DNA from: an uncultured Solirubrobacterales bacterium
GTDB lineage: Bacteria; Actinomycetota; Thermoleophilia; Solirubrobacterales; 70-9
DNA length: 64,000 nucleotides
NCBI GenBank assembly: GCA_963697805.1
Contig: CAVOPB010000003.1
Coordinates: 295,166 to 359,165, forward strand
Direction of reading: 5' to 3'
This document shows, piece by piece, positions 9,146 through 59,584 of this stretch (positions are counted from its first letter, which is position 1; each line of letters begins with the position of its first letter). Made by a program: the position numbers and the translations under genes. The notes under the pieces were generated by a model. It searched no databases. It was not told the origin of the DNA and worked only from the letters and a program-made list of their open reading frames with translations.

Positions 9146-9781
9146 CTACTCGTTGGGGACCGCCGCGAGCGACTCCCAGAGGTAGAGCGAGGCGAGGCTG
9201 CGGTGGGGGCGCCAGGCCTCGCCGATCTCGATCACCTCGGTCGGCGCAGGCATCTCCTCGAGCCCGTACTCGATCTGGACCGCCTTGCGGATCCCGAGGT
9301 CGCCGCCGGAGAGGACATCGGGCCGTTCGAGGTGGAACAGGAGGAACATCTCTGCCGTCCACTGGCCGAGGCCGCGGACCGCGACGATCTCCGCGATCAC
9401 CTCCTCATCGCCGAGTTCGTCGAGGCGGTCGAGCTCGAGCTCGCCGGAGATCACGTGCGCGGCGAGGTCGCGGATGTACTCGACCTTGCGCCCGGAGAGG
9501 CCCGCGGCCCGCAGGTCCTCTTCGCTCCCCTCGAGCAGCTCCTCCGGCGAGGGGGTGCTGCCCCCGAACAGGTCGACGACCCGACCGTAGATCGTCCGCG
9601 CCGCTTTGGTCGAGAGCTGTTGGCCGACGATTGCCCGCAGCAGCGCTCCGTAGGCGTCGGGTGGCCGCTCCTCGCTTCGCCGCCGCAGCCGGGTCTCGAG
9701 GTCGATCTCGCCGACCCGCTCGATCAGCGCCGCCATCTCCGGCCCGGTTGCGGCCAGCGCCTTTCGGTCTGCCGCGCTCAC
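9146..9781 (-). CDS. HhH-GPD family DNA glycosylase (3-methyladenine glycosylase II-like)
   Basis: 211 aa. Motifs: IVGQQLSTKAARTIYGR, AAGLSGRKVEYIRDLA, VRGLGQWTAEMFLLF, GDLGIRKAV. Confidence 0.8.
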   Translation of the reverse strand: MSAADRKALAATGPEMAALIERVGEIDLETRLRRRSEERPPDAYGALLRAIVGQQLSTKAARTIYGRVVDLFGGSTPSPEELLEGSEEDLRAAGLSGRKVEYIRDLAAHVISGELELDRLDELGDEEVIAEIVAVRGLGQWTAEMFLLFHLERPDVLSGGDLGIRKAVQIEYGLEEMPAPTEVIEIGEAWRPHRSLASLYLWESLAAVPNE

Positions 9782-10587
9782 TTTCCACTCCAGCGCGGCC
9801 GCCGCTTCTCGGCAAATGCCTGGATCCCCTCGCGGAAGTCGTCCGAGCGGAAGCAGGACTCGCGAAGCGCAACCAGGTCGGCCTCCTGGCGCTCGCTGAG
9901 AGCGGGGTTGGCATTCAGGACCTCGATCGCCTGTTTGTTGCCGCGCATCGAGAGCGGCGCGTTGGCGGCGATCGCCGCCGCCAGCTCAACCCCGGCGCCC
10001 TCGAGATCCTCGTCGGGGAAGACCTCGTGGACGAGCCCGATCTGCTCGGCCCGGGCCGCGACGACGTTGCGCCCGGTCAGGAACAGCTCCTTGGTCCTCG
10101 CCAGGCCGATCGTGTCGAGGAACTTGCGCAGCCCGGTGTGGCCGTAGATCAGGCCGAGCTTGGCGGGGGGCATCCCGAGCTTCGCCCCCGCCGCGCAGAT
10201 TCGCATGTCGCAGGTGATCGCCAGCTCGAGGCCGCCGCCGAGGCAGTGCCCGTTGATCATCGCCACGATCGGCCAGGGGTGCGCCGCCAACGCCTCCATC
10301 GCCGCGTGGAACGGATGGGCGACGAGCAACTCGGCGTCGCGCTCGAAGGTCTGTTCGGGTATCGACCCGATGTCGTACCCGGCGGAGAAGACGGGCGGCG
10401 CGCCGGTGATCAGCACAGAGCGGTTCTCGATCCCGGAGTCGAGCCGCGGCAGGGTCTCGGCCAGGGTGTCGAGGATCTCGTGGTCGAGGGCGTTGCGACG
10501 CTCGGGGTTGGAGATCGTGATCCTGACGACCGCCTCGGCGGGGGAGTCGAGGATCAGCTTGCCGCCGGCGAGCTCCTCGGAGGCCAC
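9778..10587 (-). CDS. Enoyl-CoA hydratase/isomerase family protein
   Basis: 269 aa, crotonase fold. Motifs: NPERRNAL, VFSAGYDI, VAMINGHCLGGGLELA, AFAEKRRPRWSGK. Confidence 0.85.
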   Translation of the reverse strand: MASEELAGGKLILDSPAEAVVRITISNPERRNALDHEILDTLAETLPRLDSGIENRSVLITGAPPVFSAGYDIGSIPEQTFERDAELLVAHPFHAAMEALAAHPWPIVAMINGHCLGGGLELAITCDMRICAAGAKLGMPPAKLGLIYGHTGLRKFLDTIGLARTKELFLTGRNVVAARAEQIGLVHEVFPDEDLEGAGVELAAAIAANAPLSMRGNKQAIEVLNANPALSERQEADLVALRESCFRSDDFREGIQAFAEKRRPRWSGK

Positions 10588-10589
10588 TA

Positions 10590-10655
10590 CTACCTTTCGC
10601 GCTTCGCTCGCGGCGCGAAGAGCCAGGTATGCACGCTTGCTCGCTCCGCGCTCAC
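10590..10655 (-). repeat. Intercistronic cassette copy E1 (mini-ORF MSAERASVHTWLFAPRAKRER)
   Basis: Minus-strand sequence: GTGAGCGCGGAGCGAGCAAGCGTGCATACCTGGCTCTTCGCGCCGCGAGCGAAGCGCGAAAGGTAG. The GTG overlaps the TGA of the biotinyl-carrier gene. Its stop lies directly before the GTG of the enoyl-CoA hydratase gene. It is near-identical to the copy at 46523-46594. Confidence 0.7.
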
Positions 10656-15165: not shown

Positions 15166-15936
15166 ATGCCCGACGAGATCAAGCCACAGGTCTACAAGGA
15201 CGAACGCCCGGCGTCGTATTTCGACCAGTTTCACGCCGCGGCCCGCAAGGGGGTCGGGTGGACCTACCCGCTGGTCCGCGGCATCGTGACGCTGCCGGCC
15301 CTGCTGCCCTACCGCACCCGCGCGATCGGTGTCAAGAACGTGCCGAGGTCGGGGCCGCTGATCCTCGCCCCGAACCACTTCAGCCAGATGGACCACTTCT
15401 TCACCGGCCTCTACCTGCGCCGCCAGATTCGCTTCATGGCGAAATCGCAGCTCTTCGGCCCGCCGGTGCTGACCTACCTCTACAAGCACGGCGGCGTGAT
15501 CCCGATCCGTCGCGGCCACAAGGACGAGGAGGCTTTCAAGACTGCCTTCACCGTCCTCGATCAGGGCGGGATGCTGTTGATCTATGCGGAGGGCGGCCGC
15601 TCACGCAGCGGCGAGCTCGGTGAGCCGAAATCCGGCGTCGGCCGGCTGGCGCTCGAATCAGGCGCGCCGGTCGTCCCGGTCGCGATCCACGGCTCGGAGA
15701 GGGTCCGCCGCTGGAAGCGCTTCCGGTTCCCGAAGGTGACGGTCCAGTTCGGAGAGCCGATCTCCTTCCCGGTCGAGAAGTCGGCGCCACGCGAGCGCCA
15801 GCTCGAGGTCGCGTCCGAGATCTTCGACCAGGTCCGCGGGATGTACACCCGGCTCGAAGAGGTGGGACGCGGCGAAGTGATCCGCGCCCTGCGCGAGGGT
15901 GTCACCCCCGAGCCGGGCGACCCCAACTACTCGTAA
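15166..15936 (+). CDS. 1-acyl-sn-glycerol-3-phosphate acyltransferase family protein
   Basis: 256 aa. HX4D motif NHFSQMD, YAEGGRSRSG, and VVPVAIHGS. Confidence 0.8.
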   Translation: MPDEIKPQVYKDERPASYFDQFHAAARKGVGWTYPLVRGIVTLPALLPYRTRAIGVKNVPRSGPLILAPNHFSQMDHFFTGLYLRRQIRFMAKSQLFGPPVLTYLYKHGGVIPIRRGHKDEEAFKTAFTVLDQGGMLLIYAEGGRSRSGELGEPKSGVGRLALESGAPVVPVAIHGSERVRRWKRFRFPKVTVQFGEPISFPVEKSAPRERQLEVASEIFDQVRGMYTRLEEVGRGEVIRALREGVTPEPGDPNYS

Positions 15937-25770: not shown

Positions 25771-26949
25771 TCACAGCCCGAGCTGTTTGCCCAGGATCTC
25801 CTTCATGATCTCGTCGGTTCCGCCGCCGATCGGGCCGAGGCGGGCGTCGCGGACCGCACGCTCGATCCCGTACTCGCGCATGTAGCCGTAGCCGCCGTGG
25901 ATCTGGAGGCACTCGTCGGCGATGTCGAGGACGCCGCGCTGGGTGATCAGCTTCGCCATCGTCACCTCCTTGATGCAGTCCTGGCCCTCGTGGAAGAGGC
26001 GCAGCGCGTTGTAGGTAATCGCGCGGGCGGCCTCGGCCAGGGTCGCCATCTCGGCGACCTTGTGGCGGACCGCCTGGAAGTTCCCGATCGGCCGGCCGAA
26101 CGCCCTGCGGTCGAGCGCGTAGGCGACGGTGGTCTCTATCAGCCTCTGCATCGCTCCGACCGCGCCGATCGCCATCAGCAGCCGCTCCCAGGCGAAGTTG
26201 AACATGATCAGCCTGAAGCCCTCGTTCTCGGAGCCGAGCAGGTTCTCGGCCGGGACTTCGACGTCGGTGAAGGAGAGCTCGCCGGTATCGGAGGAGTGCC
26301 AGCCGAGCTTCTCGAGCTTCGCCGAGACCTCGTAGCCGGGCATCTCGCTCTCGAGGACGAGGAACGAGATCCCGTGGTGACCGCCGTCCTGGGTCGTCTT
26401 GCAGGCGCAGACGAGGAAGTCGGCGCGGACGCCGTTGGTGATGAAGGTCTTGGCGCCGTTGACGACATAGCCGCCGTCGGTCCGCTCGGCGAAGGTCGAG
26501 ATCCCGGCGACGTCGGAGCCGGCGCCGGGCTCGGTGATCCCCAGCGCCCCGATCTTCTCGCCGGCGATCCCCGGCACCAGCCAGCGCTGCTTCTGCTCCT
26601 CGCTGCCGAAGTTGAAGATCGGCGGCATCGCGATCGAGGCGTGGGCGTTGAGCCCCGCCGCGACCCCGCCCGAGCCACCTGAGCGGGCGAGCTCCTCGAC
26701 CCAGATCGCGTCGTGGAGGTGGGTCCCGCCCTGGCCGCCGTAGCTCTCGGGGAACTTGAGGCCGAGGAAGCCGAGCTCGGCGCAGCGCCGGTAGAGCTCA
26801 CGCGGGAATTCGCGGGCGGCCTCCCACTCGTCGACATTGGGGGCGATCTCCTTCGAGACGAACCGCCTCACCGTCCCCCGCAACTCCTCGTGCTCGGAGT
26901 CAAACGGCGGCGGGACGGCTCTCACGCCCGTGTCCTTGACGACGGTCAT
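25771..26949 (-). CDS. Acyl-CoA dehydrogenase
   Basis: Starts MTVVKDTGVR at the ATG at 26949. Motifs: GALGITEPGAGSDVAG, FITNG, IHGGYGYMREYGIERAVRDARLGPIGGGTDEI. Confidence 0.9.
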   Translation of the reverse strand: MTVVKDTGVRAVPPPFDSEHEELRGTVRRFVSKEIAPNVDEWEAAREFPRELYRRCAELGFLGLKFPESYGGQGGTHLHDAIWVEELARSGGSGGVAAGLNAHASIAMPPIFNFGSEEQKQRWLVPGIAGEKIGALGITEPGAGSDVAGISTFAERTDGGYVVNGAKTFITNGVRADFLVCACKTTQDGGHHGISFLVLESEMPGYEVSAKLEKLGWHSSDTGELSFTDVEVPAENLLGSENEGFRLIMFNFAWERLLMAIGAVGAMQRLIETTVAYALDRRAFGRPIGNFQAVRHKVAEMATLAEAARAITYNALRLFHEGQDCIKEVTMAKLITQRGVLDIADECLQIHGGYGYMREYGIERAVRDARLGPIGGGTDEIMKEILGKQLGL

Positions 26950-27012
26950 CGGAGCGGACGCTAGCGCGTGTGAGGCCGGCCGGGGCCTGCGACCGCCGAT
27001 ACGATCCCTCCC

Positions 27013-28704
27013 ATGGGAGATCCGGTGCTGCTCGCTGTCGATGGGGACCCCGATGCGCTTGCCCGCACCGAGATCGAGCTCACCCGCCGCTACGGCCAGG
27101 ACTACAGGGTCCTGACGGAGAGCACCGCGGAGGGGGCGCTGGCGGCCCTCGAGCGCCTCCAGTCCGAAGCTGAGCCGGTCGCGCTGGTCCTCGCCGACCA
27201 GTGGCTCGGCAAGACGCCGGGCGCCGACGTCCTGACCCACGCCCGCGAGCTGCACCCCGCTGTCAAGCGCGGATTGATGATCGGCTGGGGGGACTGGGCG
27301 AACGCCGACACCTCGAAGGCGATATCGACCGCGATGACGCTGGGCAGGATCGACTACTACGTCCTCAAGCCTCAGCGCTGCCCGGACGAGCTCTTCCACC
27401 GCACCGTCGCCGAGTTCCTGTTCGAGTGGGCCCGTCACGAGTCGCCGCTGCAGGGCGAGATCGAGATCGTCGCCGAGCTCGGCTCGCCGCGCGCCGCCGA
27501 GCTGCGCGACCTCCTCAGCCGCAACGGAATCCCCTACGCCTGCCACCCGCCCGAGTCGACCGAAGGCCAGGCGCTGCTCAATGACTCAGGGCATGAGGAT
27601 CCGACCGTCCCGGTCGCGAAGGTGGGCGGCGGGCGATACATCGTCGACCCGACCAACGTCGAGCTGGCCGACGCGTTCGGGGTCAGCACCGAGCTCGGTG
27701 ATGAGCGCGAGTTCGACGTCGTCGTGATCGGGGCCGGGCCGGCCGGCCTCGCCGCCGCCGTCTATGCCTCCTCGGAGGGGATGCGGGCGCTGGTGATCGA
27801 GCGGGAGGCGATCGGCGGGCAGGCCGGCTCGAGCTCCCTGATCCGCAACTACCTCGGCTTCTCGCGCGGGGTGAGCGGCTCCGACCTCGCCCAGCGCGCC
27901 TACCAGCAGGCATGGGTATTCGGGACGAAGTTCCTGCTGATGCGCGAGGTGGTCGAGCTGCGGCCGGGGGAGAGGCGGCACGTCCTGCGGACCTCCGACG
28001 GCGCCGAGATCGAGACGGTGGCGGTGCTGCTCGCCTCCGGTGTCTCCTACCGCCGGCTCGATATCCCGTCGCTCTCCTGCCTCGAGGGCGAGGGCGTGTT
28101 CTACGGCGCCTCGGCCGCCGACGCCAAAGGGCTGCCCGGGAAACGCGTCTTCGTCGTCGGCGGCGGCAACTCGGCCGGCCAGGCGGCGATGCACCTCTGC
28201 CGCTACGCGGCCCGGGTGACGATGCTGGTCCGCAGGCCGACCCTCTCCGAGACGATGTCCGACTACCTGTGCCGGGCGATCGAGGCTGCCGACAACATCG
28301 ACGTGATGTACGAGACCGAGGCCGTCGGCGGCACCGGGACCCACCGGCTCGAGACCCTGACGCTTCTCGACAAGGCGTCCGGTGAGAAATCGACCGTCGA
28401 GGCCGACGCGCTGTTCGTGATGATCGGCGCCCGTCCCGGGACCGAGTGGCTCCCACCCGAGATCGAGCGCGACGAGTGGGGCTACATCCTCACTGGGACC
28501 GACCTCGAATCAGGCGACGGCCCCTCGCCGCGCCTGGGGGAGACCAGCCTCAGCCGGGTCTTCGCGGTCGGCGATGTCCGCCACGGATCTGTCAAACGGG
28601 TCGCCTCGGCGGTCGGCGAGGGCTCGATCGTGATCCAGCAGGTGCACCACTACCTCGAGGCCGAGGCCGAGGCCGAAGCCTCTGACGCCGCCGGCGTCAC
28701 CTAG
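27013..28704 (+). CDS. Fused receiver-like domain / thioredoxin-reductase-like FAD oxidoreductase (no CxxC)
   Basis: 563 aa. N-terminal receiver-like signatures: LLAVDGDPD, VALVLADQWLG, YYVLKP. C-terminal half: VVVIGAGPAGLAAAVY, VFVVGGGNSAGQAA, FAVGDV. The position of the TrxR redox motif reads YGASAADA. Confidence 0.8.
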   Translation: MGDPVLLAVDGDPDALARTEIELTRRYGQDYRVLTESTAEGALAALERLQSEAEPVALVLADQWLGKTPGADVLTHARELHPAVKRGLMIGWGDWANADTSKAISTAMTLGRIDYYVLKPQRCPDELFHRTVAEFLFEWARHESPLQGEIEIVAELGSPRAAELRDLLSRNGIPYACHPPESTEGQALLNDSGHEDPTVPVAKVGGGRYIVDPTNVELADAFGVSTELGDEREFDVVVIGAGPAGLAAAVYASSEGMRALVIEREAIGGQAGSSSLIRNYLGFSRGVSGSDLAQRAYQQAWVFGTKFLLMREVVELRPGERRHVLRTSDGAEIETVAVLLASGVSYRRLDIPSLSCLEGEGVFYGASAADAKGLPGKRVFVVGGGNSAGQAAMHLCRYAARVTMLVRRPTLSETMSDYLCRAIEAADNIDVMYETEAVGGTGTHRLETLTLLDKASGEKSTVEADALFVMIGARPGTEWLPPEIERDEWGYILTGTDLESGDGPSPRLGETSLSRVFAVGDVRHGSVKRVASAVGEGSIVIQQVHHYLEAEAEAEASDAAGVT

Positions 28705-29480: not shown

Positions 29481-30698
29481 CTACAGCCCGTAACTGCGGC
29501 CGATCACCTCGAGCATGATCTCGTCGGTGCCGGCGCCGATCCGGTTGAGGCGGACGTCGCGGTAGGCGCGCTCGATCTCGTACTCCTTCATGTAGCCGTA
29601 GCCGCCGTGGATCTGGATGCACTCGTCGGCGACCTCGCAGGCGATCCGCGAGGTGTAGAGCTTGCACTCGGAGATCTCGCGGACGGGGTACTCGCCGTTG
29701 GCGTAGCGCCAGGCGGTCGCGTAGGTGAACTGACGCGCGGCCTCGATCTTGGTCGCCATCTCGGCGAACTTGTGGCGGATCACCTGGAAGTTGCCGATCG
29801 AGCGGCCGAACGCCTTGCGCTCCTTCGCGTACTCGAGGGTGCGATCGAACATCCGCTGCGCGCCGGCGACGGCGCCGGCGCAGGCCACCATCCGCTCGCT
29901 CTGGAGCTCCCAGGCGATGTGGTAGAAGCCCTTGCCCTCCTCTCCGAGCAGGTTCGCGGCTGGGACGCGGACGTCCTCGAAGCTCAGTTCGGCGGTGTCG
30001 GAGGAGTGCATCCCCATCTTCTCGAGCTTGCGCGAGACGTTGAAGCCCGGAACCGGGTCGCCGTTGTCATCGCGGAGGTCGACGACCAGGAGGCTGATTC
30101 CCTCGTGTGCCTTCTCGGGGTCGGTCTTGACGACGAGGACGATGAAGTCCGCCCGGGCGCCGTTGGTGATGAACGTCTTCGAGCCGTTGACGACGAATTC
30201 GTCGCCGTCGCGGATCGCCTTGGTGCGGATCCCGGCGACGTCGGAGCCGGCCTCCGGCTCGGTGATCCCGAGGCAACCGATCTTCTTGCCTTCGATCGCC
30301 GGCGGCATGTAGCGCTGCTTGAGGTCGTCCGTGCCGAGCATCTCGATCGGCGGCAGGACCATGTCGGTGTGGACGATGAAGCCCATGTTCAGCCCGCCGG
30401 AGCCGGAGTAGCTGAGGCACTCGGCCCGGACCATCGAGTAGTAGTAGTCGCCGCCCTGGCCGCCGTACTGCTCGGGGAAGCAGAGGCCGAGGAAGCCGAG
30501 CTCGCCCGCCCGCGTCATCACCTCGGTGGGCCAGGTTGTCTCCTCCCACTCGTTGCGATGGGGGAACAGCTCCTTTTCAACCCACGACTGCATCGACTCG
30601 CGCAGGTCTTCGTGCTCCTGCGTGAAGATCATGTGCTTGCGGTCGGCGCCGTGGTCGGGCTTGATGACCTTGGAGCCGTTGGTCGTCGCGGTCGTCAC
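29481..30698 (-). CDS. Acyl-CoA dehydrogenase
   Basis: Motifs: GCLGITEPEAGSDVAG, FITNG, IHGGYGYMKEYEIERAYRDVRLNRIGAGTDEI. I chose the GTG at 30698, which is preceded by GAGGGGAG. The ATG at 30632 and the track start at 30740 are alternatives. Confidence 0.85.
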   Translation of the reverse strand: MTTATTNGSKVIKPDHGADRKHMIFTQEHEDLRESMQSWVEKELFPHRNEWEETTWPTEVMTRAGELGFLGLCFPEQYGGQGGDYYYSMVRAECLSYSGSGGLNMGFIVHTDMVLPPIEMLGTDDLKQRYMPPAIEGKKIGCLGITEPEAGSDVAGIRTKAIRDGDEFVVNGSKTFITNGARADFIVLVVKTDPEKAHEGISLLVVDLRDDNGDPVPGFNVSRKLEKMGMHSSDTAELSFEDVRVPAANLLGEEGKGFYHIAWELQSERMVACAGAVAGAQRMFDRTLEYAKERKAFGRSIGNFQVIRHKFAEMATKIEAARQFTYATAWRYANGEYPVREISECKLYTSRIACEVADECIQIHGGYGYMKEYEIERAYRDVRLNRIGAGTDEIMLEVIGRSYGL

Positions 30699-30758
30699 TG
30701 GGAGTCTCCCCTCGTTCGCAGCTGATCCAGAAGGCGGCACGCCGCCCTGAAAGTTGCG

Positions 30759-31598: not shown

Positions 31599-32026
31599 GA
31601 ATCGACCAGCGCTTCGAGCTGTTCGATCGCGTGGTCGAACCGCCGCGTCTGGATGGACTCGTCAAAGGACACGGTGAGCCCGCGGTACCCGATCGAGTAG
31701 AGGTAGCAATCGGCGCAGGTCCCGGAGCCGCTCGCCTGCGAGCCGATGGTTTCCCAATCGGCGTCCTCGAGGGCTGCCCGCAGCCGCCTGATCTTTTTCG
31801 GTGCAACCAGGAAGTGGACGGTCGCCCCCCGGTCCTGAAGCGTTGCGTGACGACCCGGCTCGATCTGGAGGCTGAGGAATTCGGCCTTGAGCCCGCCGCT
31901 GCGCGAGTACTTGACCGCGAACTGGGAGACGGTGGGGACCGGGTCGGGCTGCGCCCGTTCCACCGGGGATTCGCATCCCGGATAGGCGACCAAACACGAG
32001 ATCATCGCTGCGAGGAACAGTCCCAT
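31580..32026 (-). CDS. Hypothetical lipoprotein-like protein
   Basis: MGLFLAAMISCLVAYPGCESP... is signal-like with Cys residues. I recognise no family. Its ATG (32026) shares the CATG with the divergent carboxyltransferase ATG (32025). Confidence 0.45.
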   Translation of the reverse strand: MGLFLAAMISCLVAYPGCESPVERAQPDPVPTVSQFAVKYSRSGGLKAEFLSLQIEPGRHATLQDRGATVHFLVAPKKIRRLRAALEDADWETIGSQASGSGTCADCYLYSIGYRGLTVSFDESIQTRRFDHAIEQLEALVDSHRPFH

Positions 32027-33644
32027 GGGGAAAAACGTTAGAGATGGACGAGGAGAGAGATTGAGCGAGAACGACCACAAGCTGCCGGGGACTGCTTCTC
32101 TGGGAGATCTCACCGATCAGCTGCACGAGGCGCGCCAGAGGGCACAACTCGGTGGCGGCGAGGAGAAGATCGCCAAGCAGCATGAGCGCGGCAAGCTGAC
32201 CGCGCGCGAGCGGATCGACCTCCTCGTCGATGTGGGGACCTTCGTCGAGCTCGGGATCCACGGCCGCCCGCATTTCGCCCAGCGGGCGATGGACGGGGTC
32301 GAGGCGCCGGCCGACGGCGTGATCACCGGCTGGGGCGACGTCGACGGCCGGCCGACCTGCATCGCCGCCTACGACTTCACCGTGATGGCGGGCTCGATGG
32401 GGATGACCGGGGAGCTCAAGGTGACTCGGCTGCGGGAGATGGCGCTGCAGAAGCGGATGCCCTTCATCTGGCTGCTCGACTCGGCCGGGGCGCGGATCCA
32501 GGAGGCCGCAGGGTCGCTCTTCGCCGGCTCCGGGCACCTCTTCCGCGAGGAGGTCGAAATGTCGGGCGTGATCCCGATGGTGGCGGCGATGATGGGCCCC
32601 TGCGCGGCCGGCACCGCCTACATCCCGGCCCTCTCGGACTTCGTCCCGATGGTCTCGGGCCAGGGCGCGATGGCGCTCGCCGGCCCGCACCTGACCAAAG
32701 CGGTCACCGGCGAGGAGATCTCGATGGAGGAGCTGGGCGGCGCCAAGGTCCACTGCCGCAAGTCGGGAGTGGGGGACCTGGAGGTGCGCGACGACGAGGA
32801 ATGCATCGCCAAGGTCAGGGCCTACCTCTCCTACTTCCCGCCCAACTGCGAGCAGAAGCCGCCGCTGGTCGAGACCTCCGACCCCGACGACCGTCGCTCC
32901 GAGAAGCTGATGGAGATCGTCCCCGAGTCCTCGCGCCAGCCCTACGACATGTACGAGGTGATCGCCGAGATCGTCGATGACGGCGAGTGGTTCGACATCA
33001 AGCCGAAATTCGCGAAAAGCCTGATCACATGCTTCGCGCGCTTCGGGGGCCAGCCGGTTGGGATCGTCGCCAACCAGCCGAAGCATCTGGCCGGGATCCT
33101 CGACAACGACTCATCCGACAAGGCGGCGCGCTTCATCAACCTCTGCGACGCCTTCAACATCCCGCTGGTCTTCCTCCAGGACGTGCCCGGCTTCATGGTC
33201 GGCTCGAAGGTCGAGCACGCCGGGATCATCCGCCATGGGGCGAAGATGCTCTACGCGGTCAGCCGCGCGACGGTGCCGAAGGTGACGGTGATCGTCCGCA
33301 AGGCCTATGGCGCCGGCTACTACGTGATGTGCGGCAAGGCCTACGAGCCCGACGTGATCGTCGCCTGGCCGGGGGCCGAGATCTCGGTGATGGGGGCCGA
33401 GGGTGCGGTCAACATCATCGGCCGCTCGGCGATCGAGGCCTCTGATGACCCGGAGGGGACGCGCGAGGCGATGCTCGACGCGGTCCGCCAGCAGATCGAC
33501 CCCTACATCGCCGCCGGCAACGCGGTCATCGACGACATCATCGACCCGCGGGAGACGCGGCCGACGATCGTCAGGGCGCTGCGGATGGCGCGGACCAAGC
33601 ACGTCGAGAAGCCGGCCAAACGCCACGGGGTGATGCCGGTATGA
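32025..33644 (+). CDS. Acyl-CoA carboxylase carboxyltransferase (beta) subunit
   Basis: 539 aa. Motifs: GGGEEKIAKQHERGKLTARERIDLLVD, DFTVMAGSMG, LDSAGARIQE, NIPLVFLQDVPGFMVG, GAKMLYAV. Confidence 0.9.
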   Translation: MGKNVRDGRGERLSENDHKLPGTASLGDLTDQLHEARQRAQLGGGEEKIAKQHERGKLTARERIDLLVDVGTFVELGIHGRPHFAQRAMDGVEAPADGVITGWGDVDGRPTCIAAYDFTVMAGSMGMTGELKVTRLREMALQKRMPFIWLLDSAGARIQEAAGSLFAGSGHLFREEVEMSGVIPMVAAMMGPCAAGTAYIPALSDFVPMVSGQGAMALAGPHLTKAVTGEEISMEELGGAKVHCRKSGVGDLEVRDDEECIAKVRAYLSYFPPNCEQKPPLVETSDPDDRRSEKLMEIVPESSRQPYDMYEVIAEIVDDGEWFDIKPKFAKSLITCFARFGGQPVGIVANQPKHLAGILDNDSSDKAARFINLCDAFNIPLVFLQDVPGFMVGSKVEHAGIIRHGAKMLYAVSRATVPKVTVIVRKAYGAGYYVMCGKAYEPDVIVAWPGAEISVMGAEGAVNIIGRSAIEASDDPEGTREAMLDAVRQQIDPYIAAGNAVIDDIIDPRETRPTIVRALRMARTKHVEKPAKRHGVMPV

Positions 33645-33964
33645 CCGAGGTCCTGCTCAAGAACGAGAAGGAGCAGTTCACCGGCGTGCTCGTCTTCGAC
33701 GGGACGGTGTTCGAGGCGTTCGGGTTCGAGATCGGTGGCTCCTTCGGAAGCTTCGTCCGGATCCCGGTCGCGATGATGGAGAGCGCCGCCGCCTCTTTCG
33801 ACTCGGGGTTGCTGAAGACTCCGCGGCTACAGATCGTCGGCCGCGAGGACCTCGGCCTCGGCGACCTGCTGCTGCCGTTCGATCCCGACCCCTCCGAGCA
33901 GGCTGCGATCGCCCAGCTTGTCGAGGAGATCCAGAAGGCGATCGACGAGAGGGGGGGAGCATGA
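33641..33964 (+). CDS. Hypothetical protein (107 aa)
   Basis: ATGA overlap with the carboxyltransferase stop. Codon usage is coding-like. I recognise no family. Confidence 0.5.
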   Translation: MTEVLLKNEKEQFTGVLVFDGTVFEAFGFEIGGSFGSFVRIPVAMMESAAASFDSGLLKTPRLQIVGREDLGLGDLLLPFDPDPSEQAAIAQLVEEIQKAIDERGGA

Positions 33965-34032
33965 GCGCGGCAGCGACCGAGTGTCCATATCTGATCCTTC
34001 ACGAGGGAGCGAAGCGCGAGGTTTTGCAATGA
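33961..34032 (+). repeat. Intercistronic cassette copy E2 (mini-ORF MSAAATECPYLILHEGAKREVLQ)
   Basis: ATGAGCGCGGCAGCGACCGAG...GGAGCGAAGCGCGAGGTTTTGCAATGA. The ATG overlaps the upstream TGA and the TGA overlaps the downstream ATG (34029). Both ends match copies E1 and E3. Confidence 0.65.
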
Positions 34033-34925
34033 GCTCATTCGAGGACCCGGTGGTGATCAGCTGCTCGATCAGCGGCGTGATCGCCAACCGCGACCAGTGC
34101 CCGGCGATCCCGTACACCCCCGAGGAGTACGCGGCCGAGGCGCGGCGCGCGGTCGACGAGGGCGCCTCGCAGATCCACATCCACGCCCGCAAGCCGGACG
34201 GGACGCCCTCCTACGAGGTCGAGGACTTCCGGGCGATTACCGACGCGATCCTGGCCGAGGTCGGCGACGTGATCATCAACTACTCGACCGGGGCGATCGG
34301 GATCCCGATCGAGAAGCGGATCGAGTACCTGCGGGAGCTCCGGCCCGACGTCGCCGCGCTCAACATGAGCTCGATGAACTACGCCAAGTACAGCTCCCGG
34401 CGCAAGGACTTCGTCTTCAAAGCGGTCTTCGAGAACAGCTTCGACACGATCATCGAGTTCCTGACGGCGATGAAGGAGCTGGGGGTCAAGCCCGAGCACG
34501 AGTGCTTCGACGCCGGCCACGTCGCCAACCTCGACCCGCTGATCGACATGGGATTGCTGGATCGCACGCCGCTGCAGATCTCGCTCGTGATGGGGGTCAA
34601 CGGCGGGATCAGGCCGACGGCGCGCAACGTCTCGCTGATGTCCGAGCAGATCCCCGGCGGCCCCGAGGGCGAGAACCAGTGGCAGGTGATCGGGATCTCC
34701 CGCGACCAGTGGAAACTGCTCGGCTCCTCGCTGGTCCTCGGCGGCAACGTCCGTGCCGGGGTCGAGGACAACCTCTACCTGCCGAGCGGGGAGATGGCGA
34801 AGTCCAACGGCGAGCTGATCGCCAAGGCGCGGCAGATGGCGGAGGACGTCGGCCGCCGGGCCGCGAGCGTCGCCGAGGCCCGCGAGCTGCTGGGGGTGCC
34901 AAGACGTGAGCGGGCTCCCGCTTAG
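34029..34925 (+). CDS. 3-keto-5-aminohexanoate cleavage enzyme family (BKACE/DUF849)
   Basis: MSSFEDPVVISCSISGVIANRDQCPAIPYTPEEYAAEARRAVDEGASQIHIHARKPDG..., then NMSSMNY and FDAGH. Confidence 0.8.
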   Translation: MSSFEDPVVISCSISGVIANRDQCPAIPYTPEEYAAEARRAVDEGASQIHIHARKPDGTPSYEVEDFRAITDAILAEVGDVIINYSTGAIGIPIEKRIEYLRELRPDVAALNMSSMNYAKYSSRRKDFVFKAVFENSFDTIIEFLTAMKELGVKPEHECFDAGHVANLDPLIDMGLLDRTPLQISLVMGVNGGIRPTARNVSLMSEQIPGGPEGENQWQVIGISRDQWKLLGSSLVLGGNVRAGVEDNLYLPSGEMAKSNGELIAKARQMAEDVGRRAASVAEARELLGVPRRERAPA

Positions 34926-38286: not shown

Positions 38287-39318
38287 ATGAACTTGACGAT
38301 TGGTAGGCGGGCGGTTCCGTTGGCCCTGATCGGACTGACAGCTGCGGTGGCTGTGCTGATTCTTGCAATGGGTCCCGGTCTCGCCCAGGCCGACCCTGGC
38401 CATGGTTCGGCAAAGAAGTCGAAGAAGGGCAAGAAGGGACCGAGGGGGGCGAAGGGGCCGAAGGGCGACCAGGGGCCGCCGGGGCCGCAGGGGCCGATCG
38501 GCCTGCCCGGGCCGAAAGGCGACCCCGGCCCAGCCGGTGCTGAAGGCCCCCGCGGGGCGACGGGATCCACCGGCCCGGCGGGGACGCCAGGAGCAAACGG
38601 CGCAACCGGCGCAACCGGGGCGACAGGGACTTCAGGGACTCCAGGGGCTGCAGGCGCGACCGGAGCGACCGGCCCGGCGGGGCCCACTGGCCCGAGTGGG
38701 CCTGCGGGTGGCCCGACGGGCGAAACAGGCCGCCACCGGGGCTACTGGGGCGACGGGGGACGCTGGTGCGACCGGGGACGTTGGCGCGACTGGCGCGACC
38801 GGTGCCACGGGTCCATCAGGTCCGGAAGGTCCAACCGGAGCCGAAGGGGCAACCGGAGCCACCGGTGCGACCGGAGAGGCGGGCGGAGCCGGAGACATCG
38901 GCGCCACTGGCCCAACTGGGCCGAGCGGCCCAACTGGGCCAACTGGCTCGACCGGAGACACCGGAGCGACTGGTGACAACGGCGCAACCGGTGACAGCGG
39001 CGCCACGGGTGGAGCTGGGCCAACCGGCGATACGGGCGCGACCGGCGCCACCGGTCCGGCCGCGAGCCAGATTGTATGGGGATCGGCGACCGAAGCACGA
39101 TCAATCGGCGGACCTGTCCCGCGGAAACCGTCCTCTTGGGTGGTGGGTTCGAGCTCGTCAATGAAGGTGGAAAGGCCCAACCGGAAGCGGCAGACGACAT
39201 CTCCGCGAGCCAATCCAGACTGACGACGGACCCGGTTGGGAAGCCACGGTGCTTCAGCAGAACCGGCGCGGACACCGAAGTCATCGCCTACGCGGTCTGC
39301 TCGGCTCCAACTCCCTAG
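38287..39318 (+). pseudogene. Collagen-like (Gly-X-Y) secreted protein, frameshifted paralogue of 39458..40453
   Basis: Signal peptide [35 protein letters not shown], then Gly-X-Y repeats in frame 1 up to about 38730. The Gly-X-Y periodicity continues only in frame 2 (38732 to about 39076), and the C-terminal domain resumes in frame 1 (39079-39318). Read as a single frame, it stops at 38974-38976. Confidence 0.6.
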
Positions 39319-39457: not shown

Positions 39458-40453
<996 letters not shown>

Positions 40454-46097: not shown

Positions 46098-46526
46098 ATG
46101 TCCGGCCCGGGCGTCACACCTCCAACACCACCCGACGAGGACAGGTCGGTCGGGGAGCTGATCTTCGACGTCTCGGGAAGGGTCTCGACCCTGATCCGCG
46201 AGGAGGTCGAGCTCGCCAAGACCGAGATCAGCGAGAAAGTCGGCAAGATCCTGCGCGGATCGGCCGTCGGGGTCGCCGCCGGGGTGTTCGCCTTCCTCGC
46301 TCTGATCCTCGTCATGGAGGGCTTCGCCTGGCTGCTGAACGAAGAGGTCTTCGACGGCAAGGCCTGGCCCGGGTTCTTCATCGAGGCAGCGATCTTCCTC
46401 CTCGTCGCCGCCGGTGCCGGCTACTTCGCCTATCGCTCGGTCCAGGCCGGCGCGCCGCCGCTCCCCGAGCAGGCGATCGAAGAGGCGAAGCTGACCCGGG
46501 AGATGCTCGAAAAGGAGGAGCCATGA
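46098..46526 (+). CDS. Actinobacterial holin-X (Phage_holin_3_6)-like membrane protein
   Basis: MSGPGVTPPTPPDEDRSVGELIFDVSGRVSTLIREEVELAKTEISEKV..., followed by two TM spans. Confidence 0.65.
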   Translation: MSGPGVTPPTPPDEDRSVGELIFDVSGRVSTLIREEVELAKTEISEKVGKILRGSAVGVAAGVFAFLALILVMEGFAWLLNEEVFDGKAWPGFFIEAAIFLLVAAGAGYFAYRSVQAGAPPLPEQAIEEAKLTREMLEKEEP

Positions 46527-46594
46527 GCGCGGAGCGAGCAAGCGTCGCAATCTGGTTCTCCGCGCCGCGAGCGAAGCGCGAGGTATTCCAATGA
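46523..46594 (+). repeat. Intercistronic cassette copy E3 (mini-ORF MSAERASVAIWFSAPRAKREVFQ)
   Basis: ATGAGCGCGGAGCGAGCAAGCGTCGCAATCTGGTTCTCCGCGCCGCGAGCGAAGCGCGAGGTATTCCAATGA. The ATG overlaps the holin-like TGA and the TGA overlaps the DUF3618 ATG (46591). AAAGGAGGAG lies upstream. Confidence 0.7.
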
Positions 46595-46845: not shown

Positions 46846-46925
46846 CTAGCCACCCCCGGACGCGGGAGCGAGGGCCAGTCCATATCCGTTCTCCTGGCCC
46901 GAGCCGGGAGCAGAGGAGGTGGCGC

Positions 46926-57388: not shown

Positions 57389-59584
<2,196 letters not shown>

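What the first reader, a model, noticed from the sequence alone, without database searches (positions are those of the whole stretch)
33961..34032. Intercistronic cassette copy E2 between a hypothetical gene and the BKACE gene
This copy has the same architecture as E1 and E3. The ATG sits in an ATGA overlap with the upstream stop, and the TGA sits in an AATGA overlap with the downstream start. It is 72 nt long and encodes a 23-aa peptide, MSAAATECPYLILHEGAKREVLQ. The termini are conserved (ATGAGCGCGG... and ...GAGCGAAGCGCGAGGTxTTxCAATGA), but the centre has diverged and the 8-bp stem of E1/E3 is lost. So the conserved parts are the coupling junctions and the AKRE(V)(L/F)Q tail. The first 13 nt (TGAGCGCGGCAG) also recur at the ECH-stop/glycosylase-start junction at 9769-9781, which may be coincidence.
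Basis: seen in the sequence. Interest (0 to 1): 0.65.

Follow-up and report, generated by a model that had tools for sequence, protein, structure and literature searches.

The report
MIRU-like ribosome-relay repeat at start codons
The 72-base stretch between the small unknown gene and the BKACE gene is one copy of a short repeat found in soil Solirubrobacterales genomes; it inserts exactly at gene start codons and carries a tiny reading frame placed so it could pass ribosomes on to the gene, much like the MIRU repeats of mycobacteria.

Summary
E2 (33961-34032) is 72 nt, has ATGA overlaps at both ends and encodes the stated 23-aa peptide.

It belongs to a large repeat family. The window holds three copies. 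One pattern scan found at least 110 more, almost all in Solirubrobacterales MAGs, some in 68/69-nt tandem arrays.

E2 is a sub-type, not a decayed copy. A +1/-1 indel pair shifts the inner peptide frame but keeps the length. E2 keeps the family's interrupted hairpin through a compensatory U-A pair.

Selection acts on nucleotide sequence, helix and reading phase, not on the peptide:
- Unit length is 2 mod 3 in 72 of 86 copies.
- Codon positions vary equally, and some copies carry internal stops.

Copies sit exactly at start codons, inside operons and at leaderless-type promoters. Twenty filled/empty site pairs were found. For E2 itself, one soil metagenome holds both the filled allele and an empty allele lacking exactly 68 nt.

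The architecture matches mycobacterial MIRUs, but there is no sequence similarity to the one MIRU unit tested.

Most likely it is an insertional repeat tolerated because it supplies a stop, a relay ORF, a Shine-Dalgarno-like motif and a stop/start overlap. How it moves is unknown.

The parts
33961..34032 (+). E2: a full cassette copy of sub-type C. It is a 68-nt unit (33961-34028) plus the ATGA shared with the BKACE gene.
   Evidence: 77.4 bits. An empty allele lacking 33960-34028 is present in soil metagenome X2.
33961..33964 (+). 5' ATGA: mini-ORF start codon overlapping the TGA stop of the 107-aa ORF.
   Evidence: Across the family the four bases are ATGA 72, GTGA 26, TTGA 8 and CTGA 5 of 126.
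33965..34017 (+). Interrupted hairpin. In element numbering the pairs are 5-8/54-57, 13-14/49-50, 17-18/45-46 and 21-23/40-42, with a 16-nt loop UCCAUAUCUGAUCCUU.
   Evidence: The MFE fold of E2 equals the family consensus structure. Covariation is shown.
34018..34021 (+). Shine-Dalgarno-like GAGG, 7 nt before the BKACE ATG.
   Evidence: Sequence. 29 of 47 exactly coupled family copies carry an SD-like tetramer 4-15 nt upstream of the host start.
34029..34032 (+). 3' ATGA: BKACE start codon overlapping the mini-ORF stop.
33641..33964 (+). Upstream 107-aa ORF with no Pfam family and GC3 of 0.91. It is itself ATGA-coupled to the carboxyltransferase gene at 32025-33644.
   Evidence: It is absent from all 80 BKACE orthologue loci at E<1e-5. 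Only weak similarity appears upstream of BKACE in L194 and L173.
34029..34925 (+). BKACE (beta-keto acid cleavage enzyme) gene, the host gene whose start codon carries the insertion.
   Evidence: Orthologues usually have a direct ...GTATGAGC... overlap with the carboxyltransferase gene.
46523..46594 (+). E3: type A copy between the Holin-X (PF07332) and DUF3618 genes.
   Evidence: 86.9 bits. Metagenome depth over the copy is 7-30 times that of the flanks, with many contigs running into unlike flanks.
10584..10655 (-). E1: type A copy between a biotinyl-domain gene (stop TGA at 10653-10655) and an enoyl-CoA hydratase gene (GTG start at 10585-10587). Its mini-ORF ends at a TAG 2 nt before the host start.
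   Evidence: 88 bits. The orthologous site in L109 is empty.
9769..9781 (-). Unoccupied, target-like GTGA junction between the enoyl-CoA hydratase stop and the HhH-GPD glycosylase start. It reads GTGAGCGCGGCAG.
   Evidence: The orthologous junction in L109 holds a full copy.
46857..46922 (+). Degenerate relative with the family-like loop GTCCATATCCGTTCTCC and a stem GGCCAG/CTGGCC. It is not at a start codon and is itself multi-copy in soil metagenomes.
   Evidence: 14 bits; depth excess at 46850-46901.

Best explanation
E2 is one copy of a dispersed 68-nt repeat of Solirubrobacterales genomes. With the shared start and stop it spans 72 nt. The repeat is inserted exactly at a gene's start codon.

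How it would work:
- Its 5' end (N)TGAGCGCGG supplies a TGA stop for the upstream gene and re-uses the resident initiation site for its own short ORF. That site can be a termination-reinitiation site inside an operon or a leaderless 5' AUG.
- Its 3' end supplies an SD-like GAGG or AAGG and an NTGA stop/start overlap. A ribosome finishing the mini-ORF would then re-initiate on the host gene.
- A unit length of 2 mod 3 keeps this relay in phase.

The peptide itself has no function. What is conserved is the nucleotide sequence, an interrupted hairpin and the phase. The hairpin is most likely the recognition structure for whatever copies or moves the element, or possibly for an RNA-level factor.

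Shown: family membership, position at start codons, gain and loss between genomes and within one soil population, tandem arrays, helix covariation, absence of peptide selection.

Inferred: that the mini-ORF is translated and relays ribosomes; the role of the hairpin; the mode of mobility.
For: Family: at least 110 copies in other genomes plus 3 in the window.

Architecture:
- The element is preceded by NTG in 106 of 126 copies.
- 47 of 88 copies with an identified host start have an exact NTGA stop/start overlap, and 29 of those carry an SD-like motif.
- The distance from 5' NTGA to 3' NTGA is 68 nt (45 copies), 71 (13), 65 (9) or 62 (4). That makes 72 of 86 equal to 2 mod 3, p about 1e-21 if copies are treated as independent.

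Structure:
- 98.1% of cells are paired.
- 5 of 9 pairs show double changes: 53 cells against 9.8 +/- 2.4 in shuffles. Register-shifted controls collapse.
- RNAalifold finds the same helix independently.

No peptide selection. Sub-type C also shifts the inner frame while keeping the length.

Gain and loss:
- Window against L109 and L073 at three sites.
- 17 further filled/empty pairs.
- For E2 itself, both alleles occur in soil metagenome X2. The empty allele joins 33959 to 34029 through GAGC or GGGC, so the 68-nt unit is absent and a plain ...GCATGAGCTC... overlap remains.

Other support:
- Tandem arrays in L005, L093, L085 and L113, and back-joints with 7-9-nt tails in metagenome contigs.
- Leaderless contexts: 20 of 49 copies without an upstream ORF have TAnnnT ending 4-9 nt before the mini-ORF start, against a background of 0.3%.
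- The same logic is described for MIRUs (PMC12548453; PMC3184786).
Against: - No ribosome profiling or reporter data exist. Metatranscriptome contigs show only that relatives co-transcribe the carboxyltransferase and BKACE genes, and that an E2-like copy occurs in an RNA library.
- About a quarter of copies (20 of 88) end their mini-ORF more than 12 nt before the host start, mostly at the loop TGA, and often lack an SD. The relay is therefore not universal.
- The fold is not unusually stable: z-scores are +0.9 to +1.1 against shuffles.
- No transposase or consistent target-site duplication was identified.
- Within-genome copies differ by roughly 5-15%, judged from the listed sequences, so there is no sign of a recent burst.
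Confidence: 0.75

Rival explanations
1. The element is a host-selected cis-regulatory RNA module placed between cistrons. Candidates are an RNase processing or mRNA-stability site, a protein-binding hairpin, or a translational attenuator. On this view the open mini-ORF is only a side-effect, and spread by mobility is secondary or ancient.
For: - The helix is conserved and covaries.
- Orthologous copies can be more conserved than their coding flanks: the L003/L083/L090 cores are identical while the flanks are 93-96% identical.
- Orientation is strictly sense.
- Copies within a genome are old and diverged.
Against: - Host genes are functionally unrelated: BKACE, a holin-like/DUF3618 pair, an enoyl-CoA hydratase and many others.
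- Sites are readily empty in close relatives, and for E2 within one soil sample.
- The fold is weaker than that of shuffled sequence.
- There is no Rfam match.
- The 2 mod 3 phase rule is not needed for a purely structural RNA element.
Confidence: 0.15
2. It is a non-autonomous derivative of a single-strand DNA transposon, either an IS200/IS605-type palindrome-associated element or a REP/RAYT-type element. The hairpin would be recognised by a Y1 HUH transposase, which inserts the element next to a short target (N)TGA. This rival concerns how the element moves and is compatible with the relay explanation.
For: - There is an imperfect hairpin with covariation.
- There is no consistent target-site duplication beyond the NTGA itself: the matching run upstream is 1.2 against 0.61 expected.
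- Both ends abut NTGA, so a copy's 3' end recreates a target, which would explain head-to-tail arrays of 68-nt period.
- Different sub-types occupy the same orthologous site.
Against: - The element has one central hairpin rather than two subterminal ones.
- It has no REP-type GTAG head.
- G-U pairs (8 cells) and A-C pairs (6 cells) are about equally frequent, so strand or molecule type cannot be inferred.
- No transposase gene was looked for genome-wide.
- The near-absolute sense orientation would have to come entirely from selection.
Confidence: 0.2
3. It is a family of genuine small-protein genes encoding a 23-aa peptide, conserved for the peptide's function.
For: An open 21-24-codon frame with a start codon is present in 83 of 126 copies. 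The C-terminal AKRE is shared by E1, E2 and E3.
Against: - Diversity by codon position is 0.16, 0.11 and 0.13.
- The synonymous fraction is 0.21-0.29 against 0.23-0.24 expected.
- 14 stop-creating codon changes were counted.
- Sub-type C reads the centre in another frame.
- A second frame is equally open in the consensus, by direct reading of the consensus sequence.
- In the L005 array three units are fused into one 69-codon ORF.
Confidence: 0.03
4. The resemblance is chance similarity between GC-rich ATGA junctions.
For: NTGA followed by GC or GCG is common at ordinary gene overlaps in these genomes: 37% and 21% of 95 background junctions.
Against: - 0.00 matches are expected for the 3' terminus, and 2 are found.
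- The window copies score 77-88 bits, against 14 bits for the best other hit.
- More than 100 copies share a 57-nt core.
Confidence: 0.005

Closest known systems
MIRU (mycobacterial interspersed repetitive units; Supply et al. 1997, as summarised in PMC12548453 and PMC3184786)
   Same: - Short (40-100 bp) dispersed repeats, sometimes in tandem.
- They lie in the sense orientation at start codons or intercistronic junctions.
- They contain a small ORF whose ends overlap the flanking genes, giving -4 coupling.
- Filled and empty sites exist, and the elements have G+C-rich internal inverted repeats.
- The one printed unit I could test (MIRU292 of M. avium subsp. paratuberculosis, PMC7977185) is 53 nt, which is 2 mod 3. 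It has GGAGGAG 8 nt before its ATGA and an 18-codon ORF from ATGA to ATGA. This is the same design as the 68-nt unit here.
   Different: - There is no detectable sequence similarity: Smith-Waterman score 19 against 18.7 +/- 3.0 for shuffles.
- The host is Solirubrobacterales (class Thermoleophilia, from my own knowledge of taxonomy), not Mycobacterium.
- This family shows a covarying interrupted hairpin, sub-types that swap the centre between fixed termini, and frequent occupation of leaderless-type start codons. I did not find these points reported for MIRUs in the papers read.
REP/BIME and REPIN elements mobilised by RAYT transposases
   Same: They are short, G+C-rich, hairpin-forming and multi-copy, are transcribed within operons, and can act on mRNA.
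   Different: REPs lie after genes in extragenic space in either orientation, carry a GTAG head and no coupled ORF (PMC3184786 and general knowledge). The element here sits on start codons, always in the sense orientation, with phase-constrained length.
Non-autonomous IS200/IS605 derivatives and MITEs
   Same: They are small non-coding insertions showing presence/absence polymorphism, and insert next to a short specific sequence.
   Different: The element has no terminal inverted repeats beyond GCGC...GCGC and no regular target-site duplication. It has one central hairpin. No cognate transposase is known.
Enterobacterial RU-1/ERIC-type small mobile sequences carrying ORFs (PMC2759123, abstract only)
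   Same: They are small intergenic repeats that happen to contain open reading frames.
   Different: They are larger (103-168 bp) and MITE-like. As far as the abstract says, they are not positioned so that ORF ends overlap flanking stop and start codons.
Engineered bicistronic-design translational couplers (mentioned in PMC12548453, ref. 78)
   Same: A short leader ORF contains the SD for the gene of interest and ends in a stop/start overlap, delivering ribosomes to the gene regardless of local structure.
   Different: Those are synthetic. The element here is a natural repeated sequence that is gained and lost.

Membership tests
MIRU-type relay repeat (architecture) | Short (40-100 bp) repeat present in many dispersed copies | tested here: met
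   The window holds 3 copies. A capped genome scan found at least 110 more. Depth over E3 is 7-30 times that of its flanks in soil metagenomes. The number of copies per genome was not measured.
MIRU-type relay repeat (architecture) | Located at start codons or intercistronic junctions, in the same orientation as the flanking genes | tested here: met
   A downstream same-strand gene start lies within 2-14 nt of the core in 84 of 88 copies.
MIRU-type relay repeat (architecture) | Internal small ORF whose start and stop overlap the neighbouring stop and start (-4 spacing) | tested here: met
   E2 and E3 match exactly. 47 of 88 family copies have the exact NTGA overlap. 72 of 86 units are 2 mod 3. 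A minority of copies do not conform.
MIRU-type relay repeat (architecture) | Occurs as variable tandem arrays | tested here: met
   L005 has 3 copies (69-nt period), L093 has 3, and L085 and L113 have 2 each (68-nt period). Back-joints are seen in metagenome contigs. Copy-number variation at a single locus was not shown.
MIRU-type relay repeat (architecture) | Filled and empty orthologous sites | tested here: met
   For E2 itself.
MIRU-type relay repeat (architecture) | Co-transcribed with the flanking genes | tested here: inconclusive
   Metatranscriptome contigs come from relatives. One contig joins the carboxyltransferase gene directly to BKACE, and one carries an E2-like copy elsewhere. 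None spans E2 at its own locus.
MIRU proper (mycobacterial family) | Sequence homology to the MIRU consensus | tested here: not met
   Smith-Waterman score 19 against 18.7 +/- 3.0 for shuffles, using MIRU292. Only one 53-bp unit was available.
MIRU proper (mycobacterial family) | Resident in Mycobacterium genomes | tested here: not met
   The family-type hits are Solirubrobacterales or other actinobacterial MAGs.
REP / REPIN | 20-40-nt palindrome with a conserved GTAG head, extragenic after genes, associated with a RAYT gene | tested here: not met
   The element has no GTAG head, spans 57-72 nt and sits at start codons. RAYT presence was not tested.
MITE | Terminal inverted repeats and a fixed-length target-site duplication | tested here: not met
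   Only 4-nt GCGC/GCGC termini pair. Flank identity upstream of NTGA barely exceeds chance.
IS200/IS605-derived element | Subterminal hairpins at both ends, insertion 3' of a fixed tetra- or pentanucleotide, and a Y1 transposase in the genome | tested here: inconclusive
   There is a single central hairpin. Insertion next to NTG(A) is compatible with this family. The transposase could not be tested without whole genomes.
Small-protein gene | Purifying selection at the amino-acid level | tested here: not met
   The frame-shifted sub-type C is shown.
Curated RNA family (Rfam 15) | Match at or above the gathering score | tested here: not met
   No hit in the whole window. At permissive thresholds only chance CRISPR-DR hits appear, at E of 2.5-3.5.
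CRISPR array | Repeats separated by unique spacers | tested here: not met
   Arrays are head-to-tail with no spacers, and most copies are solitary.

The most novel reading that the evidence does not exclude
Relay cassettes may be a general, so far undescribed class of insertion in Thermoleophilia and other Actinomycetota, not a single family. At one junction (carboxyltransferase/BKACE), related soil genomes carry at least a dozen unrelated inserts of 14-143 nt. Almost all are 2 mod 3, and each has an open ORF running from the upstream ATGA to the downstream ATGA. At least one of these hairpin types also occurs at other loci.

The family studied here also occupies leaderless start codons and swaps its centre between fixed termini at the same site. 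This would point to an integration or conversion mechanism directed at translation start sites by an unknown enzyme. Alternatively, it could reflect a very strong selective filter that shapes operon junctions.
Probability: 0.4. Interest if true: 0.75.

Novelty: new variant of a known kind. Interest (0 to 1): 0.6.

Why it matters
- MIRUs have been treated as a peculiarity of mycobacteria, and how they spread is still unknown.
- A second, unrelated family with the same design in a distant actinobacterial order has over a hundred copies, clear helix covariation, many filled/empty sites and leaderless-start insertions. This makes the design rules testable: phase 2 mod 3, own stop, own SD, stop/start overlap.
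- It offers comparative material for finding the mobilising activity.
- For annotation, these cassettes explain many 'odd' 60-70-nt gaps and spurious mini-ORFs between coupled genes in soil actinobacterial MAGs.
- They are natural analogues of engineered bicistronic couplers.

Tried and rejected
- Rfam, at gathering and permissive thresholds: nothing relevant.
- blastn of the consensus against 72,556 plasmids: no match.
- Sequence homology to a printed MIRU unit: none.
- Fixed target-site duplication: only a weak excess of flank identity, matching run 1.2 against 0.61.
- Extended target preference (GCG after NTGA): not different from ordinary gene overlaps.
- Peptide-level selection: none.
- Unusual thermodynamic stability: none; the copies fold slightly worse than shuffled sequences.
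- G-U against A-C asymmetry, to separate an RNA hairpin from a DNA hairpin: uninformative, 8 cells against 6.
- RNA evidence at the E2 locus itself: metatranscriptome contigs come from relatives lacking E2.
- Searching for E2-site orthologues via BKACE: none of the 80 loci has the 107-aa ORF, so the direct empty allele came from metagenome contigs instead.
- An empty allele for E3 in the same runs: not found.
- Literature search for MIRU-like elements in Solirubrobacterales or other Actinobacteria: nothing found in the held library.

Full report
**Observation.**
The stretch 33961-34032 reads ATGAGCGCGGCAGCGACCGAGTGTCCATATCTGATCCTTCACGAGGGAGCGAAGCGCGAGGTTTTGCAATGA. Its ATG overlaps the TGA of a 107-codon ORF (33641-33964; GC3 0.91; no Pfam family). 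Its TGA overlaps the ATG of a BKACE gene (34029-34925; PF05853, 9e-90).

The 26-nt 3' terminus is shared with 46569-46594: two matches against 0.00 expected from shuffles. A third copy lies on the minus strand at 10584-10655, 88% identical to the 46523 copy over 58 nt. The window is 69% G+C. It contains no tRNA and no Rfam family at gathering score.

**A large family.**
I scanned one genome per bacterial and archaeal species for GAGCGCGG-N(30-42)-GAGCGAAGCGCGA. About five are chance hits in unrelated phyla. The rest are Solirubrobacterales MAGs, or MAGs labelled only Actinomycetes, Actinomycetota or Acidimicrobiia, and they carry the same core.

The 72-nt consensus is ATGAGCGCGGAGCGAGCAAGCGTcCATaTCTGGTTCTTCGCGCCGCGAGCGAAGCGCGAggatTTGtgaTGA. 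A covariance model built from 101 distinct copies scores the three window copies at 88, 87 and 77 bits. The next window hit scores 14 bits.

In an unselected sample of 366 kb around BKACE orthologues, only three copies were found, so density varies between genomes. In soil metagenomes that hold the window's sequence, contig depth over E3 is 7-30 times that of its flanks. Many contigs match only the element and then run into other flanks.

**E2 is a sub-type, not a decayed copy.**
The alignment shows three sub-types:
- Type A: ...GCGAGC...CCGCGAG...
- Type B: ...GCGACC...CCGGGAG...
- Type C, to which E2 belongs along with L045, L051, L067, L079 and L112.

Type C has one extra base after GCGG and one base fewer before GGGAGCG. 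The centre is therefore translated in a different frame, while the total length and the two ends stay in phase. A further class has the same termini around a different 60-nt centre containing a GATCRCCGGTGAT palindrome.

**What is under selection.**
(i) Structure. An interrupted helix spans almost the whole core. In alignment columns the pairs are 5-8/58-61, 13-14/53-54, 17-18/49-50 and 23-25/43-45. It is predicted independently by RNAalifold and supported by pair counts:
- 98.1% of cells are paired.
- Five of the nine pairs counted show changes on both sides.
- 53 double-change cells were found against 9.8 +/- 2.4 in shuffles, and register-shifted controls collapse.
- Individual copies close the internal loop or replace the stem altogether: L019 ACCCGCA/TGCGGGT, L075 CCTG/CAGG, L078 and L097 G-C at 18-49.

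E2 keeps the helix with a compensatory U-A at 24-44, and its MFE fold is the family structure. The fold is not unusually stable (z +0.9 to +1.1), so this is a specific shape rather than a thermodynamic block.

(ii) Phase. The distance from the 5' NTGA to the 3' NTGA is 68, 71, 65 or 62 nt in 71 of 86 copies. Overall, 72 of 86 are 2 mod 3. That is exactly the length needed for an ORF starting on the upstream stop overlap to end on the downstream start overlap.

(iii) Not the peptide. Diversity is flat over codon positions (0.16, 0.11, 0.13). The synonymous fraction equals the mutational expectation. Fourteen stop-creating codon changes were counted.

**Position and context.**
- The four bases spanning the element's 5' boundary are ATGA (72), GTGA (26), TTGA (8) or CTGA (5) of 126.
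- In 51 of 100 distinct copies the TGA closes a long high-GC3 ORF. This count is conservative: the three window copies fell just below my GC3 cut-off.
- Of the 49 others, 20 have a -10-like TAnnnT ending 4-9 nt before the mini-ORF start, against a background of 0.3%. That is the geometry of leaderless actinobacterial promoters (general knowledge).
- Downstream, a same-strand gene start follows within 2-14 nt of the core in 84 of 88 copies. 47 of the 88 have the exact NTGA overlap, and 29 of those have an SD-like tetramer.
- Twenty copies end their ORF early, mostly at a loop TGA (ATCTGATT), and mostly lack an SD. These do not fit the relay and may be decayed or work differently.

**Gain and loss.**
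L109 and L073 are syntenic with window 7.5-18.7 kb.
- E1's site is empty in L109 (GAG TAG CC GTG).
- The window's hydratase/glycosylase GTGA junction (9778-9781) is empty where L109 has a full copy.
- The window's start codon near 15166 is empty where L073 has a copy behind a terminator-like hairpin.

Seventeen more filled/empty pairs among the loci show the same pattern. The insert begins at the N of the start codon, and the host's own start follows the tail. L014 looks like a deletion footprint (TGAGCGCGAATTT...) of the copy present in L039, L015 and L095.

For E2 itself, soil metagenome X2 contains a contig identical to the filled allele (33930-34065). It also contains two contigs that join 33959 to 34029 through GAGC or GGGC. 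In that allele the 68-nt unit 33961-34028 is absent and a plain ...GC ATGA GCTC... overlap links the 107-aa ORF to BKACE.

Flank comparison gives no regular target-site duplication beyond NTG(A). There is also no target preference beyond the ordinary composition of gene overlaps.

The same orthologous site can hold different sub-types: L024 and L033 are type A where L067 is type C, and L058 is type A where L069, L091 and L104 carry the 60-nt class. This suggests re-insertion at the site or conversion between copies.

**Mechanism proposed.**
Shown:
- It is an insertional repeat sitting on start codons.
- It brings a stop for the upstream gene, an ORF in phase, an SD-like motif and a stop/start overlap.

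Inferred:
- The resident initiation signal now drives the mini-ORF. That signal can be reinitiation after the upstream gene, or a leaderless 5' AUG.
- Termination at NTGA hands the ribosome to the host gene, so the insertion is nearly neutral.
- The hairpin serves the copying machinery or an RNA-level factor.

G-U and A-C counts (8 against 6 cells) do not distinguish an RNA hairpin from a single-stranded DNA hairpin.

**Comparison with known elements.**
This is how MIRUs are described. They are said to insert at start codons, with an internal ORF coupled at -4 spacing and presumably minimal effect on expression (PMC12548453, citing Supply 1997). They are 40-100 bp, show filled/empty sites and tetranucleotide direct repeats, and have G+C-rich internal inverted repeats (PMC3184786).

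The one MIRU unit I could obtain (MIRU292, PMC7977185) is 53 nt, which is 2 mod 3. It has GGAGGAG before its ATGA and an ORF from ATGA to ATGA. It has no sequence similarity to this family. The element therefore works like a MIRU but is not a member of the mycobacterial family by sequence or host. It fails the defining features of REP elements, MITEs and small-protein genes (see the membership table). I found no description of such elements in Solirubrobacterales in the held literature.

**A wider pattern.**
Among 80 BKACE orthologue loci, 20 have the direct ATGA overlap with the carboxyltransferase gene. About 28 others carry inserts longer than 50 nt, with unit lengths of 59, 62 (twelve loci), 65, 68, 80, 116, 140 or 143 nt. 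Nearly all are 2 mod 3. Nearly all have an open ORF from the upstream ATGA to the downstream ATGA, although the sequences are unrelated and often form very stable hairpins. One 143-nt type differs from its 62-nt form by 81 nt, which is 0 mod 3. One hairpin type (CTGTTCCTT...AAGGAACAG) recurs at other loci. The relay phase rule is thus general at this junction, whatever the origin of the inserts.

**Verdict.**
The finding is real and far beyond chance. It is wrong on the peptide tail and on the loss of structure. E2 is a polymorphic copy of a MIRU-like relay repeat family of Solirubrobacterales.

Noticed in passing
L117-L196, junction just upstream of the BKACE start (e.g. L122:1005-1065, L124:2444-2504, L142:2350-2500): Many unrelated 59-143-nt inserts occupy the same carboxyltransferase/BKACE ATGA junction. 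Nearly all have unit lengths of 2 mod 3 and an open mini-ORF from ATGA to ATGA. Several form very stable hairpins (-25 to -34 kcal/mol), for example TTCCGGTGCGC...GCGCACCGGAAGGAGG.
   Followed up: partly
L016:5070-5120, L027:6222-6272, L141, L157, L195: The hairpin CTGTTCCTT...AAGGAACAG occurs both at the BKACE junction and at unrelated loci. It is therefore a second dispersed repeat family.
   Followed up: partly
window 46857-46922: A degenerate relative of the family has the loop GTCCATATCCGTTCTCC and a compensated stem GGCCAG/CTGGCC. It lies between the DUF3618 gene stop and the end of a convergent DegV gene. It shows a roughly 20-fold depth excess in soil metagenome X2, so it is itself multi-copy.
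   Followed up: partly
window 9769-9781 (minus strand): The glycosylase gene starts GTGAGCGCGGCAG-ACCGAAAGG. This matches the type C 5' end 12/12, and is followed by ACCGA and AAGG, which also occur in type C copies. It could be an in-frame deletion footprint of a former copy or simply a target-like junction. L109 has a full copy at the orthologous site.
   Followed up: partly
L014:723-762 versus L039, L015, L095: There is an apparent deletion footprint. L014 reads ...ATGAGCGCGAATTTCATTT... where its orthologues have the full element. This is consistent with loss by recombination between the AGCGCG direct repeats at the element's two ends.
   Followed up: partly
L024/L033/L067 and L058/L069/L091/L104: The same orthologous site, with the same flanks and site-specific tail, carries different sub-types of the element in different genomes: type A against type C, and type A against the 60-nt class.
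   Followed up: partly
L006, L020, L040, L043, L050, L057, L070, L074 (60-61-nt cores): A class has the family termini but a different centre (GAGCGAGATCRCCGGTGATGA...). Copies often lack a preceding NTG start and are sometimes followed by further GAGCGAGCGAGA-like repeats. Their context was not analysed.
   Followed up: no
window 33641-33964: The 107-aa ORF between the carboxyltransferase and BKACE genes is absent from all 80 BKACE orthologue loci at E<1e-5. Only faint similarity to small ORFs is seen upstream of BKACE in L194 and L173. By its position after a carboxyltransferase beta subunit it might be an epsilon-like subunit of the acyl-CoA carboxylase, but that is untested.
   Followed up: partly
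window 38363-39223, 39458-40453, 57410-59584: Two ORFs have collagen triple-helix repeats. A 724-aa ORF combines FG-GAP repeats, a collagen repeat and Ig-like domains. These account for the 9-nt-periodic direct repeats found by the repeat finder.
   Followed up: partly
window 25771-27546 and 29481-30740 (minus strand): Two paralogous acyl-CoA dehydrogenase genes lie 3.7 kb apart, 72-79% identical in DNA over several blocks.
   Followed up: no
window 32182-32222: ATGAGCGCGG...GCGCGAGCGG inside the carboxyltransferase gene gives a weak model hit (14 bits, centre missing). It is probably chance.
   Followed up: no
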